Of a stretch of 64,000 nucleotides of DNA, positions 49,989-53,698 are shown piece by piece. The notes beneath the pieces were generated by a model, which did no database searches, had not been told where the DNA came from, and saw only the letters and a list, made by a program, of their open reading frames with translations. The stretch is from assembly GCA_030595925.1 (NCBI GenBank), contig JAUVLC010000001.1, forward strand, positions 1,476-65,475, given 5' to 3'. A program made the translations under genes and the position numbers. How positions within the stretch are numbered: the first letter of the stretch is position 1; the number at the start of each line of letters is the position of its first letter. The DNA comes from Clostridia bacterium. GTDB lineage: Bacteria > CBDUZB01 > JAGLHV01.

Positions 49989-51518
49989 CTATTTCTTTTT
50001 CTTTATCGTAATTTCCACTATCGCTTTATCCTCATTAATTTCATCACTAAGAGGACCTTTTATAACACACCGGGAACGTGTGGAAAAAACTTCTTTAATC
50101 TTAATTTTTCCTACTTGTACTCTCCCCGGATTGTAAATCACTCCTTTTATATTTTTTTTAATCCTGCGGTCTTCAGAACCTACATTAATTATAATTGCCT
50201 TTACCTCATCATTCCTTTTTTCCACTTCCAATACTTCGGCCCGAATTGTCTCTATTGGCGAAGTTGTTACTACCGGTGGCGAAGTTGTTGCAACTATAAT
50301 TCCTAATTTCATTTTTGCCTTTTTTATCCAATCTTGAATCTTAGAAGATTTTTCATCGAGGCTTTCTGCTTTTACAAAATATTTTAATGATTTTGCATAT
50401 TTTTTTATCGTTTTTGGAGACTTTAATCCTTTTTTTGACTCCACAATTTCTCCCTTTCCAAAATATTTCTTCCCTTTCTTAAAAAACTTCTCTGCCTTTT
50501 GCTTAGTTGGAGGATTTGTTACATCTCCTTCTAACTTTTTTGCACCAAATTTCATACCTAAACTAATCCGGTGACTATTTCCTATATCATTGTTATAAGG
50601 AACATAGGCATAATCTGCAGATAGTTTATCGGAGGAAACCATCCCCATTCCCACTCGCAGGCCATCTCCCAAATCCTGGTTGGATATATAACCCATTCTT
50701 AAATTAAAACCTTTCCAGAAACGGTATTCCGCACCTAAACTAACAAAAAAATCATTATCCAATGGAATATTAAAATCCATCGCCAAATTAAGGCGATTTT
50801 CTAACAACTTAGTTGCTGCCCCCAATTTACAATTCACAGGGAGAGTTTCTCCTTCATCAATAAATTTTATTTTAGTCCCTAAATTCTGAACAGCAATCCC
50901 GATATTTAAAGGCAATTTATAATTAGAAATATTTAACCAGGATAGATTAATCACAGGACTAAATGAGTATAAAAAACCCATATCCAGAGCAAAAGCAATA
51001 GCAGACTCATCACCTAATTGTTGCCGGATAAATTTAAGATTTGCTCCTGCTGATATTCCCAAATCCAGAAGATTTAATCTCTTGTCTAAATCTTTTTCTC
51101 CATAGGACAAAACTAATGCTAAATCCGAAGCACCTACTCCACCTGTAGCATTTCCATCCTCATCATATCCTTCCATTTTACTCATCGAAAGAAAATTTAC
51201 ACTTGCACCCAGGGTCCTTCCATATTTTAAAGGATAAGCAAAAGCAAGAAAATCATGATTAATACCGTCAATCCACTCATTATGCATAAAGGTAATCTCT
51301 TTACGATTTAAATTACCCAGTCCTGCCGGATTCCACCAAATAGTATTCACATCATCAACAATAGCTACACCAGTTTCCCCCATTGCTATTGGTCGTGCAC
51401 CTACACCAATCTTTAAAAAATTCGCTCCTGTACTTCCCGGACCACTGGCGAATGCGCATAAAGCATAGAGCATAGAGCACAAAATAACTACACTTCCTTT
51501 AAACAAAACCTTTTTCAT
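49989..51518 (-). CDS. PorV/PorQ-like (UPF0164) outer-membrane beta-barrel protein with a Lys-rich C-terminal extension
   Basis: Signal peptide, then ANFLKIGVGARPIAMGETGVAIVDDVNTIWWNPAGLG, which resembles the conserved PorV-family N-terminus; alternating beta-strand pattern. Confidence 0.45.
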   Translation of the reverse strand: MKKVLFKGSVVILCSMLYALCAFASGPGSTGANFLKIGVGARPIAMGETGVAIVDDVNTIWWNPAGLGNLNRKEITFMHNEWIDGINHDFLAFAYPLKYGRTLGASVNFLSMSKMEGYDEDGNATGGVGASDLALVLSYGEKDLDKRLNLLDLGISAGANLKFIRQQLGDESAIAFALDMGFLYSFSPVINLSWLNISNYKLPLNIGIAVQNLGTKIKFIDEGETLPVNCKLGAATKLLENRLNLAMDFNIPLDNDFFVSLGAEYRFWKGFNLRMGYISNQDLGDGLRVGMGMVSSDKLSADYAYVPYNNDIGNSHRISLGMKFGAKKLEGDVTNPPTKQKAEKFFKKGKKYFGKGEIVESKKGLKSPKTIKKYAKSLKYFVKAESLDEKSSKIQDWIKKAKMKLGIIVATTSPPVVTTSPIETIRAEVLEVEKRNDEVKAIIINVGSEDRRIKKNIKGVIYNPGRVQVGKIKIKEVFSTRSRCVIKGPLSDEINEDKAIVEITIKKKK

Positions 51519-51715
51519 CTTCCTTCCTCCTTTCGTTATTTTAAGCTTAGAGCTTAGAGCTAAGAGCTGAGAGCATAGAGCTAAGAGCTAAGAGCATAGA
51601 GCATAGAACTAAGTGCTAAAAGCTAAGAGCAATCTAAACCCGCATTTTTTTATCCTGTATCCTGTATCCTGAATCTTGTATCCTGCATCGTGCATCCTGT
51701 ATCCTGTATCCTAAA

Positions 51716-53698
51716 TCACCTAATTATCATCAAACGTCCTTTTTTCTTGTCTCCTTGATTATTACTAATTGTGTAAATATAAACCCCGCTGGATAAATCC
51801 TTCGCTCCATCCCATTGATAATTACCATCTCCATCGGTCTCTTCCAATTCGCAAACCTTCTCTCCTGAAATAGTATAAATTTTAATTTTTGCATACGCAG
51901 TTAAATTAGTAAAAGTAATATTAAAATGGTCATTCGTTTTAAAAGGTACAGGATAAGCAAATACTCTCTTTAAATCATCACTGGTTGGTTCACCAAGCAA
52001 TGCATATACTGAAAAATGACTAACTTCTGCACTCACCGTATTTTCAACAGTATCTACAGTAGAACCTGATAGTTTTGACCATTGACTATCAACCAGTTCA
52101 TAAATTGCCAGTGTGTTTTCATGTAAACGAGGATTCATATTACCCACCCAACCATCCTGATTTACATCCTCATAAGGTAAAGTAATAATAACCGGTGCCC
52201 CAAAATTATCTTCAATCAATTCTCCTTCAGTATTATAAATAACAAACTCAGTAATACTTCCTGGAATGCGATTAAAATTTTCATCTGCATCATCTTTTTC
52301 ATTCGCCATTTTAATTTCATTAATATCCGCAACCTGCGGATTATCTTCCGCATCAAGATTTATTATTAAATCCCCATCCTGACCCAAAGCATTAGCCAAA
52401 AACTCTACTTTAGTTTTACCATCAGCAGCAATAACTGTACTATCTTCATCAGCAACAATTCTATTTACCAAAGGAATAAAATCAGGATTATATATCAAGA
52501 CCCGATGATTACAATGGTCAGAGATAAAAAGTTTTACTCCATCACTAAAAACATCGATAGGATAATTGAGACTACTTGCACTTACTCCTCCATTGTTGGC
52601 AGTATTACTGATAAAATCAGGCTGTCCAAAAACCATATCCGCTGGTTCATTATTACTAGTGGGAATACTATTATGAATCAAGACTCGATGATTATATCGG
52701 TCACCGATATATAATCTTATCCCATCACTATAAATATACCATGGAAAATAAAGACTACTGGCAACGGGATTACTTTCCCCTGCACCACTATTTATTCCAT
52801 TGTGTTCAAAATCCGGCTGTCCCAGAACTACATCCGCCTCTTCATTGTCATTGGGAAGAATATTATTATAAATCAAAACCCGATGATTGCACCGATCAAC
52901 TATATAAAGTCTTGTCCCATCATTGTAAACACCAATAGGAAAATAAAGACTATTAGCAACCGGACTATTTTCTCCCCTACCACTATTTATTCCATTATTA
53001 TAAAAATCAACCTGACCCAAAACTACATTTGCTGGTTCATTGTTATTTGTTGGTATATGGTCATATATCAAAACTCGATGATTATGTTGGTCGGTAATAT
53101 AAAGCCTTGTCCCATCACTAAAAACATCGATAGGATAATTGAGACTATTTGCACTTATTCCTCCATTATTAGCAGTGTTGCTAGTAAAATTAGGTTGTCC
53201 CAAAACCACATCAGCTGGTTCATTATTACTTGTTGGAATACTGTTATGAATCAAGACTCGATGATTATATATGTCAGCAATGTAAAGCCTTGTTCCATCA
53301 CTAAAAACACTATAAGGATGATAGAGACTTTTGGCACTTATTCCTCCATTATTAATAGTGTTGCTGGTAAAATTGGGTTGTCCCAAGACTACATCTGCTG
53401 GCTCATTATTACTTGTTGGAATACTGTTATGAATCAAGACTCGATGATTATACATGTCAGCAATGTAAAGTCTTATTCCATCACTAAAAACCTTAATGGG
53501 ACCATGGAGACTACTTGCACTTACCCCACCATAATTAACTGTATTCGTGCCAAAATTCGACTGACCCAAAACAACCTCTGCATTTTGATTATTACTGGCA
53601 AAAGCAAAAATCAAAGAAATCCCTACTGTCAATAAAATAATAATAACAACTATTACCTTCCATCCACTAATTTTTAATTTTCTCTTCCCTCGTTTCAT
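51716..53698 (-). CDS. NHL-repeat beta-propeller protein with a T9SS-type C-terminal sorting domain
   Basis: At least six ~45-aa repeats (YNHRVLIHNSIPTSNNEPADVVLGQPNFTSNT.NNGGISA.SL..P..VFSDGTRLYI); C-terminal CTD ~85% identical to that of 35754..36317. Confidence 0.7.
   Translation of the reverse strand: MKRGKRKLKISGWKVIVVIIILLTVGISLIFAFASNNQNAEVVLGQSNFGTNTVNYGGVSASSLHGPIKVFSDGIRLYIADMYNHRVLIHNSIPTSNNEPADVVLGQPNFTSNTINNGGISAKSLYHPYSVFSDGTRLYIADIYNHRVLIHNSIPTSNNEPADVVLGQPNFTSNTANNGGISANSLNYPIDVFSDGTRLYITDQHNHRVLIYDHIPTNNNEPANVVLGQVDFYNNGINSGRGENSPVANSLYFPIGVYNDGTRLYIVDRCNHRVLIYNNILPNDNEEADVVLGQPDFEHNGINSGAGESNPVASSLYFPWYIYSDGIRLYIGDRYNHRVLIHNSIPTSNNEPADMVFGQPDFISNTANNGGVSASSLNYPIDVFSDGVKLFISDHCNHRVLIYNPDFIPLVNRIVADEDSTVIAADGKTKVEFLANALGQDGDLIINLDAEDNPQVADINEIKMANEKDDADENFNRIPGSITEFVIYNTEGELIEDNFGAPVIITLPYEDVNQDGWVGNMNPRLHENTLAIYELVDSQWSKLSGSTVDTVENTVSAEVSHFSVYALLGEPTSDDLKRVFAYPVPFKTNDHFNITFTNLTAYAKIKIYTISGEKVCELEETDGDGNYQWDGAKDLSSGVYIYTISNNQGDKKKGRLMIIR

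What the first reader, a model, noticed from the sequence alone, without database searches (positions are those of the whole stretch)
49989..53698. T9SS-type elements (PorV-like barrel, two CTD-bearing cargo proteins) interleaved with contractile-system genes
Two proteins end in near-identical ~80-aa Por-type C-terminal sorting domains: an NHL propeller (51716) and a 187-aa protein (35754). A PorV/PorQ-like outer-membrane barrel sits next to the NHL protein.

The CTD DNA of the two cargo genes is ~85% identical, indicating recent duplication or cassette exchange.

Co-localisation of T9SS cargo and shuttle with an eCIS-like baseplate module in one repeat-structured island is unusual. It hints at a surface-remodelling or attack island.
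Basis: partly seen in the sequence, partly recalled or inferred. Interest (0 to 1): 0.55.

Follow-up and report, generated by a model that had tools for sequence, protein, structure and literature searches.

The report
PorV-type barrel module inside injection-system operon
Real relatives of type IX secretion parts (an outer-membrane barrel and two proteins carrying its docking tail) sit inside a phage-tail-like injection-system operon, and the barrel carries an extra domain found in other such operons, so they look like an envelope accessory of the injection system, not stray cargo.

Summary
49989-51518(-) is a PorV/PorQ-family barrel: NCBIfam 189 bits against a cut-off of 90, and the AF2 model's best fold match is PorV. 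51716-53698(-) is a six-bladed NHL propeller ending in a type-A CTD. 35754-36317(-) is a 187-aa protein with a similar CTD. All three lie in an eCIS operon that covers about 29.7-64 kb.

One number is wrong. The two CTDs are 77% identical in DNA, not 85%, with dS about 1.2 and dN/dS about 0.12. That is an old duplication kept alike by selection, not a recent one.

New result: the barrel carries a linker and an ~85-aa C-terminal beta-domain that none of its 120 closest barrel homologues has. That domain recurs in eCIS loci elsewhere. It is fused to PorV-like barrels beside propeller-CTD genes in an unrelated 53% GC genome. It also ends lipoproteins in spirochaete and myxobacterial eCIS operons, and only in loci that also carry the FHA gene.

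Best reading (confidence about 0.5): a PorQ-PorZ-like surface anchor recruited as an outer-membrane accessory of this CIS clade. I could not test whether the genome has a T9SS core. I rate it a new variant of a known kind, interest about 0.6.

The parts
51716..53698 (-). 660-aa exported NHL beta-propeller. It has a signal peptide or signal anchor, six NHL blades, an Ig-like middle region and a type-A CTD.
   Evidence: Pfam NHL 59 bits and Por_Secre_tail 33.3; TIGR04183 39.1 bits. Blades listed. Homologous to the 948-aa NHL-CTD protein beside the barrel in L100 (352 bits).
51719..51973 (-). Type-A CTD of the NHL protein (residues 576-660).
   Evidence: TIGR04183 covers residues 582-658. 79-80% aa and 77% DNA identity to the CTD of the 187-aa protein.
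49989..51518 (-). 509-aa PorV/PorQ-family outer-membrane protein with a C-terminal extension.
   Evidence: NF033709 189.4 bits (cut-off 90), below the PorV and PorQ equivalog cut-offs. Profile hit to PDB PorV at 1e-39. AF2 model with Foldseek best hit PorV, TM 0.67-0.69 normalised to the target.
50544..51431 (-). FadL/PorV-type beta-barrel (residues about 30-325).
   Evidence: AF2 pLDDT above 90 over these residues, with about 14-15 strands. Closest barrels (40-46% identity) sit downstream of CTD-bearing surface proteins in other uncultured bacteria.
50259..50543 (-). Lys-rich, helical, low-confidence linker (residues about 326-420), presumed periplasmic.
   Evidence: AF2 helices at 339-435 with low pLDDT. 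The equivalent linkers in relatives are charged helices or Pro/Thr-rich stretches.
49992..50258 (-). About 85-aa C-terminal beta-domain with the motif AEVLEVEK...G..G.I.N....GKIKI.EV..RS. No Pfam or PDB family could be assigned.
   Evidence: Shared with the L007 barrel. Only 15 phmmer hits among 1.84 billion representative proteins. Found in eCIS loci L096/L097, L042, L023, L036, L040, L019, L020, L035 and L099. Absent from the 120 nearest barrel homologues. Only a weak FlgT_C similarity.
35754..36317 (-). 187-aa small CTD protein: N-terminal membrane helix, three GG(D/N)(Y/F)x(L/I) hairpin-like repeats and a type-A CTD.
   Evidence: TIGR04183 32.2 bits. AF2 helix at 10-34 and a beta-sandwich at 120-186, in a low-confidence model. 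The 86%-identical orthologue occupies the same position in L089. A small CTD ORF follows the barrel gene, two genes downstream of the CIS13-like gene, in L007.
35757..36011 (-). CTD of the 187-aa protein.
53890..54699 (-). 269-aa short VgrG-like spike, directly upstream of the NHL gene.
   Evidence: Phage_base_V 67 bits. 244 bits to the 266-aa VgrG-like protein that lies downstream of the barrel and propeller-CTD genes in L099.
48606..49445 (-). 279-aa protein with a C-terminal PG_binding_1 domain, between the barrel gene and gp25.
   Evidence: Pfam PG_binding_1 43 bits. No homologue in any fetched eCIS locus.
31522..32661 (-). Bitopic VWA protein: signal peptide, periplasmic VWA domain, transmembrane helix and cytoplasmic CxxC...CxxC tail. 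Candidate periplasmic partner (inference).
   Evidence: Pfam VWA; TIGR03436 112 bits. Sequence read. Present in 24 of 80 GTDB eCIS loci, including 6 of the 7 that carry the beta-domain.
33101..33487 (-). Small cytoplasmic FHA protein, conserved next to the VWA gene.
   Evidence: Pfam FHA 52 bits. Present in all 7 GTDB loci that carry the beta-domain.
34771..35616 (-). 281-aa exported fibre-like protein. Its N-terminal module is shared with the 312-aa protein; its C-terminal head differs.
   Evidence: 88% DNA identity between 35318-35617 and 43363-43662. Weak Bdello_MAT_N hit, 25 bits. The L089 orthologue keeps the N-terminus and has a different C-terminus.
42723..43661 (-). 312-aa exported fibre-like protein with a CTHRC1_C head.
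   Evidence: Pfam CTHRC1_C 50 bits; repeat D19.
45097..48511 (-). gp25-like and baseplate-J-like core genes of the eCIS. They serve as the reference frame for the insertions.
   Evidence: GPW_gp25 93 bits, Baseplate_J 96 bits, TIGR02243 349 bits. Synteny with L007.

Best explanation
The three genes are true homologues of type IX secretion parts, but they do not look like a general shuttle with casual cargo. The barrel belongs to the PorV/PorQ family. I propose that it binds the retained CTDs of the NHL propeller and of the 187-aa protein and holds them on the cell surface. This is how PorQ holds PorZ, PorV holds PorU and PorP/SprF hold type-B CTD proteins.

Both termini of such a barrel face the periplasm. 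The long linker would therefore place the C-terminal beta-domain some nanometres below the outer membrane. That beta-domain is the part tied to the contractile system. In other phyla the same domain is encoded inside eCIS operons of the same FHA/VWA-bearing clade, either on lipoproteins or on other PorV-like barrels.

So the pair is an outer-membrane accessory module of this CIS clade: a surface-exposed propeller (adhesion or sensing), an outer-membrane anchor, and a periplasmic domain. The periplasmic domain probably contacts the cell wall or the periplasmic VWA protein, whose cytoplasmic tail lies next to the FHA protein and the baseplate.

Shown: the homologies, the domain architecture, the gene order, the recurrence in other genomes, and purifying selection on the two CTDs.
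Inferred: CTD-barrel binding, topology, the beta-domain's partner, and any role in docking, triggering or release of the CIS.
For: 1. Family and fold of the barrel and the CTDs.

2. Cargo-then-barrel gene pairs recur among the barrel's closest relatives. A CTD-bearing protein lies directly upstream of the barrel in L004, L005, L091 and L093.

3. The CTDs score best against the C-termini of PorZ (38-46 bits). PorZ is a T9SS component that keeps its CTD.

4. The two window CTDs have dS 1.23 and dN 0.15. This fits two proteins that must fit one barrel.

5. The small CTD protein is conserved at 86% identity and at the same operon position in L089, a relative whose PNPase is only 74% identical.

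6. An unrelated genome (L007 plus L099, one 1.47-Mb contig, GC 53%) has a similar set of genes in its eCIS locus:
   - CIS13-like, then PorV-like barrel with beta-domain, then a small CTD ORF.
   - FHA-VWA-AAA-DUF1257-...-PorV-like barrel with beta-domain, then two 1,200-aa propeller-CTD proteins, then a short VgrG (244 bits to the window's) and PAAR.

7. L100 has barrel with beta-domain followed by an NHL-CTD protein scoring 352 bits to the window's.

8. The beta-domain HMM hits eCIS-embedded lipoproteins at first-round E-values of 2e-7 to 1e-5 for four loci and 4e-4 to 1.5e-3 for two more. Two further loci appear after iteration. There are no hits on reversed ORFs.

9. The domain occurs only in FHA-positive loci (7 of 7) and in VWA-positive loci in 6 of 7. 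Fisher p = 0.0025 for VWA, not corrected for phylogeny.

10. The window's barrel is closer to more than 120 barrels that lack the domain (155-268 bits) than to any barrel that has it (58-96 bits). The fusion therefore looks independently assembled.

11. Published precedent for a cognate barrel-CTD anchor linked to the cell wall: PorP-PorE-PG1035 and SprF-SprB (PMC9143113).
Against: - No experiment and no complex model. CTD-barrel and beta-domain-VWA contacts are inferences.
- Only three or four independent contexts carry a barrel with the domain. In L100 no CIS gene is visible on the 10-kb contig.
- 73 of the 80 closest GTDB eCIS loci show no beta-domain within 10 kb, and none has a PorV-like or CTD gene. 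The module is dispensable for the machine.
- eCIS particles assemble in the cytoplasm, while every protein of the module is exported. A direct physical link needs a membrane-spanning partner that has not been shown.
- The island also picked up unrelated small genes (a 23S-IVP gene and a toxin-antitoxin pair) relative to L089. Accretion of passengers does happen here.
- The beta-domain has no assigned fold or function.
Confidence: 0.5

Rival explanations
1. Hitch-hiking surface-protein cassette. The NHL-CTD protein and its barrel are an ordinary T9SS-type adhesin-plus-anchor pair, of which these bacteria have many. It landed in a recombination-prone, repeat-filled island and has no functional tie to the CIS. 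The small CTD protein is another such surface protein.
For: - The closest barrel homologues sit beside CTD proteins in loci with no CIS genes (L004, L005, L091, L093).
- L100 shows the barrel-with-domain plus NHL-CTD pair next to an ECF sigma factor and housekeeping genes, with no CIS gene in view.
- The window's island has gained a 23S-IVP gene and a toxin-antitoxin pair relative to L089.
- 0 of 80 GTDB eCIS loci carry PorV-like or CTD genes.
Against: - It does not explain why the same rare C-terminal domain (15 phmmer hits among 1.84 billion representatives) is on the eCIS-embedded barrels of two unrelated genomes and on lipoproteins inside spirochaete and myxobacterial eCIS operons.
- It does not explain why the small CTD gene lies just downstream of the CIS13-like gene in the window and L089, and one gene further (after the barrel) in L007.
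Confidence: 0.27
2. Trans-envelope anchor or trigger. The barrel, its periplasmic domain, the bitopic VWA protein and the FHA protein form an envelope-spanning complex. The complex docks the baseplate under the outer membrane and fires the CIS outward on contact, sensed by the surface propeller and the fibre-like proteins. The system would then work like a T6SS rather than a released particle.
For: - The exported and bitopic parts needed for such a bridge are all encoded in the operon.
- The beta-domain co-occurs with FHA and VWA.
- There are VgrG, PAAR and a possible effector-immunity pair (274 aa and a 121-aa membrane protein).
- Precedents exist for eCIS-lineage machines that stay anchored: the thylakoid-anchored CIS (PMC8894136) and CisA in Streptomyces (PMC12237407).
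Against: - No contact between any of these parts has been shown.
- The operon keeps the eCIS-type AAA ATPase, and in L007 a long gene follows the tube gene where a tape-measure would sit. Both are typical of fixed-length released particles.
- Most loci of the clade lack any outer-membrane component within 10 kb.
Confidence: 0.15
3. Self-protection or release. The surface propeller and small CTD protein mask or modify the producer's own receptor so released particles do not kill kin. Alternatively, the barrel and the PG-binding protein help particles leave through the envelope.
For: - The module sits next to a PG_binding_1 protein and LysM proteins.
- A possible immunity-like membrane protein is nearby.
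- The fibre-like proteins have variable heads.
Against: - There is no similarity to known immunity or lysis proteins.
- A 14-stranded FadL-type barrel cannot pass a particle.
- Nothing in the data specifically favours this reading.
Confidence: 0.08

Closest known systems
PorQ-PorZ and PorV-PorU pairs of the Porphyromonas/Flavobacterium T9SS attachment complex
   Same: - The barrel is in the same family (NF033709), with the same FadL-type fold.
- The partner proteins end in type-A CTDs, and these score best against the PorZ C-terminus.
- The proposed role is the same: a barrel that keeps a CTD protein on the cell surface.
   Different: - It fails both equivalog models.
- It has a 185-aa linker plus beta-domain that PorV and PorQ lack.
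- It is encoded next to its partner inside a contractile-injection operon, not with porU or T9SS genes.
- The organism is an unclassified deep lineage in which a T9SS has not been shown.
PorP/SprF-like barrels with cognate type-B CTD proteins and PorE (PorP-PorE-PG1035; SprF-SprB), PMC9143113
   Same: - A dedicated FadL-type barrel is encoded beside the CTD protein it anchors.
- The chain from surface protein to barrel to wall-binding periplasmic element is comparable.
- PG1035 was proposed as a small 'cap' for the barrel, comparable to the 187-aa CTD protein.
   Different: - Here the CTD is type A and the barrel is PorV/PorQ-family, not PorP/SprF.
- The periplasmic element is fused to the barrel and is a different, unassigned domain.
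- The context is a CIS operon.
eCIS of the Afp/PVC kind; the clade with an approximately 1,000-aa baseplate-J protein found in Myxococcota, Spirochaetota and Planctomycetota
   Same: The core gene set and order match L007 and other loci: eCIS_core x2, tube-LysM, gpD hub, gp25, baseplate J, PASTA-Tail_P2_I, CIS13-like, FHA, VWA, AAA ATPase, DUF1257.
   Different: The window has three blocks of extra genes between core genes:
1. VgrG, a 274-aa protein, a 121-aa protein, short VgrG, NHL-CTD, barrel, PG-binding protein.
2. Fibre-like protein, PAAR, LysM protein.
3. IVP gene, small CTD protein, fibre-like protein.

Five of these products carry export signals.
Membrane-anchored CIS: T6SS TssJLM, the thylakoid-anchored CIS of Anabaena, and CisA of Streptomyces
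   Same: The idea is the same: a phage-tail-like machine uses accessory membrane proteins to connect to the envelope (PMC8894136, PMC12237407).
   Different: There is no sequence relationship. No outer-membrane beta-barrel of the PorV family or CTD protein is known in those systems. Anchoring here is only a hypothesis.

Membership tests
T9SS type-A CTD proteins (TIGR04183 / PF18962) | C-terminal domain matching the type-A CTD model above the curated cut-off, at the extreme C-terminus | tested here: met
   NHL protein: 39.1 bits against 23, residues 582-658 of 660. 187-aa protein: 32.2 bits against 23, ending 2 residues before the stop. The Pfam model passes for the NHL protein (33.3 against 27) but not for the small protein (21.1 against 27).
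T9SS type-A CTD proteins (TIGR04183 / PF18962) | N-terminal Sec signal for export to the periplasm | tested here: met
   Read from the sequence. NHL protein: MKRGKRKLK followed by a 20-aa hydrophobic stretch and AFA/S. Small protein: hydrophobic helix at residues 10-34 in the AF2 model. No signal-peptide predictor was available.
T9SS type-A CTD proteins (TIGR04183 / PF18962) | Genome encodes the T9SS core (SprA/Sov translocon, PorK/L/M/N or GldK/L/M/N, PorU sortase) | not testable with these tools
   No core T9SS family among the window ORFs that were scanned. The genome was not found in the GTDB scan, and only short contigs or unnamed records were retrievable. PNPase places the organism in an unclassified lineage at most 58% identical to Elusimicrobia, Zixibacteria or Omnitrophica.
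T9SS type-A CTD proteins (TIGR04183 / PF18962) | CTD removed by PorU and cargo linked to anionic LPS | not testable with these tools
   Needs proteomics. The best matches to the retained CTD of PorZ hint at retention. That is inference only.
PorV (NF033710) / PorQ (NF033711) proper | Score above the equivalog cut-off | tested here: not met
   PorV 91.3 bits against 250; PorQ 113.6 against 220; PorV2 81.2 against 325.
PorV/PorQ family (NF033709, PF19572) | Score above the subfamily cut-off | tested here: met
   189.4 bits against 90; Pfam PorV 35.9 against 27. The L007, L099 and L100 barrels score 130-170 bits.
PorV/PorQ family (NF033709, PF19572) | 14-stranded FadL-type barrel closest in fold to PorV | tested here: met
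   AF2 barrel with pLDDT above 90. Foldseek rank 1-2 are PorV 8gl6_F and 6h3i_F (E 9e-15 and 9e-14; TM 0.67-0.69 on the target), followed by FadL. Sequence profile against 6h3i_F gives 1.1e-39.
PorV/PorQ family (NF033709, PF19572) | Binds CTDs, and for PorV docks on SprA through a loop | not testable with these tools
Extracellular contractile injection system (Afp/PVC-like) | Baseplate wedge (gp25, gp6/J, gp7/I-like), spike (VgrG, PAAR), tube, eCIS_core (DUF4157) proteins and a CDC48-like AAA ATPase in one operon | tested here: met
   The sheath gene is not in the window; it lies upstream in the relative L007, and the window ends inside the operon.
Extracellular contractile injection system (Afp/PVC-like) | Particles released from the cell rather than anchored | not testable with these tools
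   Needs microscopy or fractionation.

The most novel reading that the evidence does not exclude
An eCIS-lineage machine has acquired an envelope-spanning connector built from recycled T9SS parts. The chain would run from a surface propeller held by its CTD on a PorV-family barrel, through a periplasm-spanning linker and beta-domain, to a bitopic VWA protein and an FHA protein at the baseplate. The system would then fire from inside the cell on contact, like a T6SS. The same beta-domain on lipoproteins would play this role in spirochaete and myxobacterial systems. This would be a previously unrecognised class of CIS membrane complex.
Probability: 0.15. Interest if true: 0.85.

Novelty: new variant of a known kind. 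Interest (0 to 1): 0.6.

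Why it matters
How phage-tail-like injection systems of the eCIS lineage relate to the diderm envelope is largely unknown. Open points include how they leave the cell, where they dock and what triggers them. Known membrane adaptors are few and unrelated to each other: TssJLM, the thylakoid anchor and CisA.

This locus points to a concrete, testable candidate set of envelope parts for a widespread clade found in Myxococcota, Spirochaetota, Planctomycetota and candidate phyla:
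- a small beta-domain carried on lipoproteins or on PorV-family barrels;
- CTD-bearing surface proteins;
- a periplasmic VWA protein.

It also shows PorV/PorQ-family barrels and type-A CTDs used as gene-adjacent, dedicated anchor pairs far from the Bacteroidota, in a context other than general secretion. That bears on how the T9SS attachment parts evolved.

Tried and rejected
1. Finding the source genome, to look for T9SS core genes.
   - Exact-protein look-ups returned only 1.7-3.7-kb contigs or nothing.
   - Cluster look-ups gave no organism names.
   - The GTDB scan did not contain the genome; the best baseplate-J identity was 43%.
   - The PNPase search gave only 'bacterium' labels for close relatives.

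2. The metagenome scan with the barrel protein found only 23-33% identical relatives.

3. Recent duplication of the CTDs: rejected.

4. A PorV 'shuttle' equivalog: rejected on scores.

5. Assigning the beta-domain to a known family. Pfam gave only weak FlgT_C hits in 2 of 19 members. The PDB profile search found nothing below E = 0.36. The AF2 model has no confidence there because the alignment lacks that region.

6. The single-sequence AF2 model of the 187-aa protein has mean pLDDT 47.5. It is usable only for the membrane helix and the CTD sandwich.

7. The promoter and terminator scan of 48-58 kb was no better than shuffles. Operon boundaries remain unknown.

8. Rfam found only a tRNA at 1209-1281.

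9. Literature: no paper in the library links T9SS parts with CIS loci, and none covers T9SS in the neighbouring candidate phyla.

10. The heptamer repeats as part of the module: rejected. They are absent from L007, L099 and L100.

Full report
**1. What is at the coordinates**

All genes of the region are on the minus strand.

- 51716-53698 encodes a 660-aa protein.
  - The N-terminus is basic then hydrophobic (MKRGKRKLK..., cleavage-like AFA/S).
  - Six blades of 61-65 aa follow; several are nearly identical to each other.
  - Then come an Ig-like middle part and a C-terminal domain that passes the type-A CTD models: TIGR04183 39.1 bits against 23, and Pfam Por_Secre_tail 33.3 against 27.
- 197 nt downstream, 49989-51518 encodes a 509-aa protein with a classical signal peptide.
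  - It passes the PorV/PorQ family model (NF033709, 189.4 bits against 90) and Pfam PorV (35.9 against 27).
  - It fails the equivalog models for PorV (91 against 250), PorQ (114 against 220) and PorV2 (81 against 325).
  - A profile of it and 54 homologues hits the solved F. johnsoniae PorV (6h3i_F) at 1.1e-39.
  - The AF2 model has pLDDT above 90 over residues about 30-325. Its best Foldseek matches are PorV in 8gl6 and 6h3i, followed by FadL.
- 35754-36368 is listed as 204 aa from a GTG. It passes TIGR04183 at 32.2 bits.

**2. The number that does not hold**

- The two CTDs align without gaps. They are 74% identical over 91 aa and 79-80% over the last 80-85 aa.
- DNA identity over those codons is 77%, and 72% over 361 nt that include the flanks. 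The '86% mean column identity' printed corresponds to that 72%.
- Third-codon-position identity is 59%. Nei-Gojobori gives dS = 1.23 and dN = 0.15.

Synonymous sites are close to saturation while the protein is conserved. This is an old duplication under purifying selection, not a recent duplication or cassette swap.

**3. The setting**

Window positions 1-24 kb are housekeeping genes. They include alaS, recA, ftsK, lolA, pnp, infB, nusA and rimP.

From about 29.7 kb to the window end runs one minus-strand eCIS operon: two eCIS_core (DUF4157) proteins, CIS_tube-LysM, a gpD-like hub, two VgrG-like proteins, gp25, a 1,008-aa baseplate-J protein, PAAR, PASTA-Tail_P2_I, a CIS13-like 502-aa protein, FHA, VWA, a CDC48-like AAA ATPase and DUF1257.

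A compact relative (L007, baseplate J 45% identical) has the core order hub, gp25, baseplate J, P2_I, CIS13-like. Against that frame the window has three blocks of extra genes:
1. Between hub and gp25: VgrG-488, a 274-aa protein, a 121-aa membrane protein, VgrG-269, NHL-CTD, the barrel and a PG_binding_1 protein.
2. Between baseplate J and P2_I: a fibre-like CTHRC1_C protein, PAAR and a LysM protein.
3. After CIS13-like: a 23S-IVP gene, the 187-aa CTD protein and a second fibre-like protein.

Five of these products carry export signals: the NHL protein, the barrel, the small CTD protein and the two fibre-like proteins. The interleaving is real.

**4. The organism**

- PNPase has relatives at 98, 93, 92, 83 and 74% identity. 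All of these that carry a label are labelled only 'bacterium'.
- Identity then drops to 58% or less, to Elusimicrobia, Zixibacteria, Omnitrophica, Abyssubacteria and Eiseniibacteriota.
- The genome was not among the GTDB representatives scanned.

It is an unclassified deep lineage with about 33% GC. I could not establish whether it has a T9SS core. The window contains none.

**5. Is the association with the CIS more than an accident?**

Against:
- None of the 80 closest eCIS loci from GTDB genomes has a PorV-like, CTD or NHL gene within 10 kb of baseplate J.
- Two further relatives examined also lack them.
- The barrel's closest homologues (40-46% identity) lie in loci with no CIS genes. There they sit directly downstream of a large CTD-bearing surface protein (L004, L005, L091, L093). 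'CTD protein plus its own barrel' is thus a common two-gene cassette in these bacteria.

For, in four lines:

(a) Conservation in a relative. In L089 (PNPase 74% identical, same rimP-nusA-infB neighbourhood) the small CTD protein is 86% identical. It occupies the same slot after the CIS13-like gene and is again followed by a fibre-like protein with the same N-terminus and a different head.

(b) An extra domain on the barrel.
- Residues about 326-509 form a Lys-rich helical linker and an ~85-aa beta-domain.
- The 405-aa PorV/PorQ-family protein that directly follows the CIS13-like gene in L007 (NF033709 130 bits) has a Pro/Thr-rich linker and the same domain.
- A phmmer search with the domain alone against 1.84 billion representative proteins found 15 hits. 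They are PorV-like barrels of 425-456 aa and a few lipoproteins.
- None of the 120 nearest barrel homologues has the domain.

(c) A matching locus in an unrelated genome.
- One hit, P0380, lies on the same 1.47-Mb contig as L007, adjacent to it (L099, GC 53%).
- Its order is FHA, VWA, AAA ATPase, DUF1257, DUF2997, a 139-aa protein, a pentapeptide protein, barrel with domain, two 1,200-aa beta-propeller proteins ending in CTD/FlgD-Ig-like domains, two small genes, then a 266-aa VgrG-like protein (244 bits to the window's VgrG-269) and PAAR.
- Downstream of the L007 barrel there is also a small ORF with a signal peptide, a Thr/Pro stalk and a CTD. It is interrupted by an in-frame TAG.
- That unrelated genome thus has a comparable kit in its eCIS locus.
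- L100 (GC 41%) has a CTD protein, then barrel with domain, then an NHL-CTD protein scoring 352 bits to the window's. No CIS gene is visible on that 10-kb contig.

(d) The domain in other eCIS operons.
- An HMM of the beta-domain finds it in eCIS operons that have no barrel.
- It ends 150-180-aa lipoproteins just upstream of DUF1257 in spirochaete loci (L019, L035, L040, L042) and in L096/L097. It ends 315-460-aa ORFs (lipoprotein signals in L023 and L036; the L020 ORF is cut by the locus end) in delta/myxobacterial loci (L020, L023, L036).
- First-round E-values were 2e-7 to 1e-5 for four of them and 4e-4 to 1.5e-3 for two more (L040, L019); L020 and L035 appeared only after iteration. There were no hits on reversed ORFs.
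- Among the 80 GTDB loci the domain occurs only where FHA is present (7 of 7), and where VWA is present in 6 of 7. The exception is a truncated locus. Fisher p = 0.0025 for VWA, not corrected for relatedness.

The window's barrel is closer to more than 120 barrels that lack the domain (155-268 bits) than to any barrel that has it (58-96 bits). The barrel-domain fusion therefore seems to have been assembled more than once. That is what one expects if function requires this domain to be tethered to the outer membrane.

**6. How it most likely works**

Shown:
- the homologies and domain architecture;
- the gene order and its recurrence;
- selection on the CTDs.

Established knowledge:
- PorV and PorQ are FadL-type barrels that bind type-A CTDs.
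- PorU and PorZ keep their CTDs and stay bound to PorV and PorQ.
- PorP/SprF-like barrels are encoded next to the type-B CTD proteins they anchor. PorE links PorP to peptidoglycan, and the small PG1035 was proposed as a cap on PorP (PMC9143113).

Inference:
- The window's barrel holds the NHL propeller, and alternatively the 187-aa protein, on the cell surface through their retained CTDs. These CTDs score best against the PorZ C-terminus.
- One barrel serving two CTD proteins would explain why the two CTDs stay about 80% identical at dS about 1.2.
- The linker puts the beta-domain in the periplasm. There it may bind the wall or the periplasmic VWA protein. That protein has a signal peptide, a VWA domain, a transmembrane helix and a cytoplasmic CxxC...CxxC tail, and it is encoded next to a small FHA protein.

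I commit to 'dedicated outer-membrane accessory module of this CIS clade' at about 0.5.
- Within that reading, surface adhesion or sensing of targets seems the likeliest task.
- The stronger claim of a trans-envelope anchor or trigger is scored as a separate rival at about 0.15.
- The main rival is a hitch-hiking adhesin cassette in an accreting island, at about 0.27.

**7. Comparison with what is known**

- The barrel is a member of the PorV/PorQ family but is neither PorV nor PorQ proper.
- The CTDs are type-A by model score.
- The closest functional analogues are PorQ-PorZ and PorP-PorE-PG1035.
- The differences are the fused periplasmic domain, the CIS context and the phylogenetic position.
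- No paper in the searchable library connects T9SS components with CIS loci.
- Precedents for anchored eCIS-lineage machines use unrelated proteins.

I file it as a new variant of a known kind.

**8. Limits**

- All evidence is sequence and context from a handful of metagenomic loci.
- The T9SS core test, complex predictions and a genome-wide enrichment test for the beta-domain could not be run.
- The Fisher test ignores shared ancestry.
- The AF2 model says nothing about the C-terminal 185 residues.

Noticed in passing
window 25,300-63,950, nearly every intergenic gap (e.g. 25388-25695, 26522-26773, 36776-36943, 38695-39130, 51547-51706, 53727-53789): Tandem heptamer arrays fill the gaps between island genes. 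None of the two heptamer families tracked here lies in the housekeeping part (1-25 kb).
- On the coding strand an array of CAGGATA/CACGATT-type units usually follows the stop codon. This resembles the CsrB repeat CAGGAUG with its GGA core.
- An array of CTCTTAG/CTCTATG-type units precedes the ribosome-binding site. In some gaps inverted copies (TATCGTG) sit before the start codon.
- TRF period-7-multiple arrays.
- The arrays are shorter in relative L089 and absent from L007, L099 and L100.
- Logan and JGI contigs of this population are only 1.7-3.7 kb; the JGI contig L003 carries the same arrays, so they may be what breaks assemblies.
   Followed up: partly
window 35518-35538, 43563-43618; L089 2704-2736: The CTCTATG/CTCTTTG heptamer array runs into the coding sequence. 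There it encodes the hydrophobic core of the signal peptides of the fibre-like proteins (...SMLLAFCFLLYA / LCLMLFALCSYA). Repeat DNA and signal-peptide coding overlap.
   Followed up: no
window 24,500-38,500 compared with L089: CIS-island proteins are 84-95% identical to those of relative L089. The adjacent housekeeping proteins (RimP, NusA, IF2, RbfA, the DHH protein and the 291-aa radical-SAM-like protein) are only 64-79% identical. The switch falls near 27 kb. This suggests recent lateral exchange of the island at a conserved chromosomal site, or unusually strong constraint.
   Followed up: partly
window 54840-57572 (-): VgrG-488 is followed by a 274-aa protein with no family (contains ...ELYIYGHGW...) and an overlapping 121-aa protein with several hydrophobic helices. 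The layout resembles a VgrG-effector-immunity cassette. Neither protein has a homologue in any fetched locus.
   Followed up: no
window 34771-35616 and 42723-43661 (-); L089 2669-3694: Three exported proteins share a ~130-aa N-terminal module and have unrelated C-terminal heads. Between the two window copies the module is 88% identical in DNA. One head is CTHRC1_C. There is a weak match to the N-terminal domain of Bdellovibrio mosaic adhesive trimer fibres (25 bits, below cut-off).
   Followed up: partly
window 33706-34275 (+) and 36365-36763 (-): Two insertions are absent at the corresponding positions in L089. One is a plus-strand pair of small genes that reads like an antitoxin-toxin pair (no family search was run on them). 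The other is a 23S-rRNA-intervening-sequence (four-helix-bundle) gene. They appear to be recent insertions into the operon.
   Followed up: no
L007 17015-17698 (+): The small signal-peptide, Thr/Pro-stalk, CTD gene after the L007 barrel has an in-frame TAG at 17177-17179. It could be a pseudogene, a long-read assembly error or read-through.
   Followed up: no
window 52490-53563: The NHL blades are 183-195-nt DNA repeats, 63-81% identical to each other. Blades 1, 2 and 5 end in the same ...YNHRVLIHNSIPTSNNEPAD. This indicates intragenic duplication or conversion.
   Followed up: partly
window 49446-49988: The 540-nt gap after the barrel gene has no heptamer arrays. It holds GC-rich hairpins instead (CCTCTCCCTTGAGGGGAGAGG, CTCCTCCCACAAGGGGAGGAG, CCTGCCTGTGCGTGTCCGCACGCAGACAGGG). 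They may be a terminator or a small mobile-repeat remnant.
   Followed up: no
window 41092-41784: There is an internal 300-nt direct repeat, 89% identical with 393-nt spacing, inside the 577-aa LysM protein gene.
   Followed up: no
window 24507-25382 (-); L099 19071-19889: The 291-aa radical-SAM/SPASM-like protein at the edge of the island has a homologue (56 bits) between the propeller-CTD genes and the short VgrG in L099. It may belong to the CIS accessory set.
   Followed up: no
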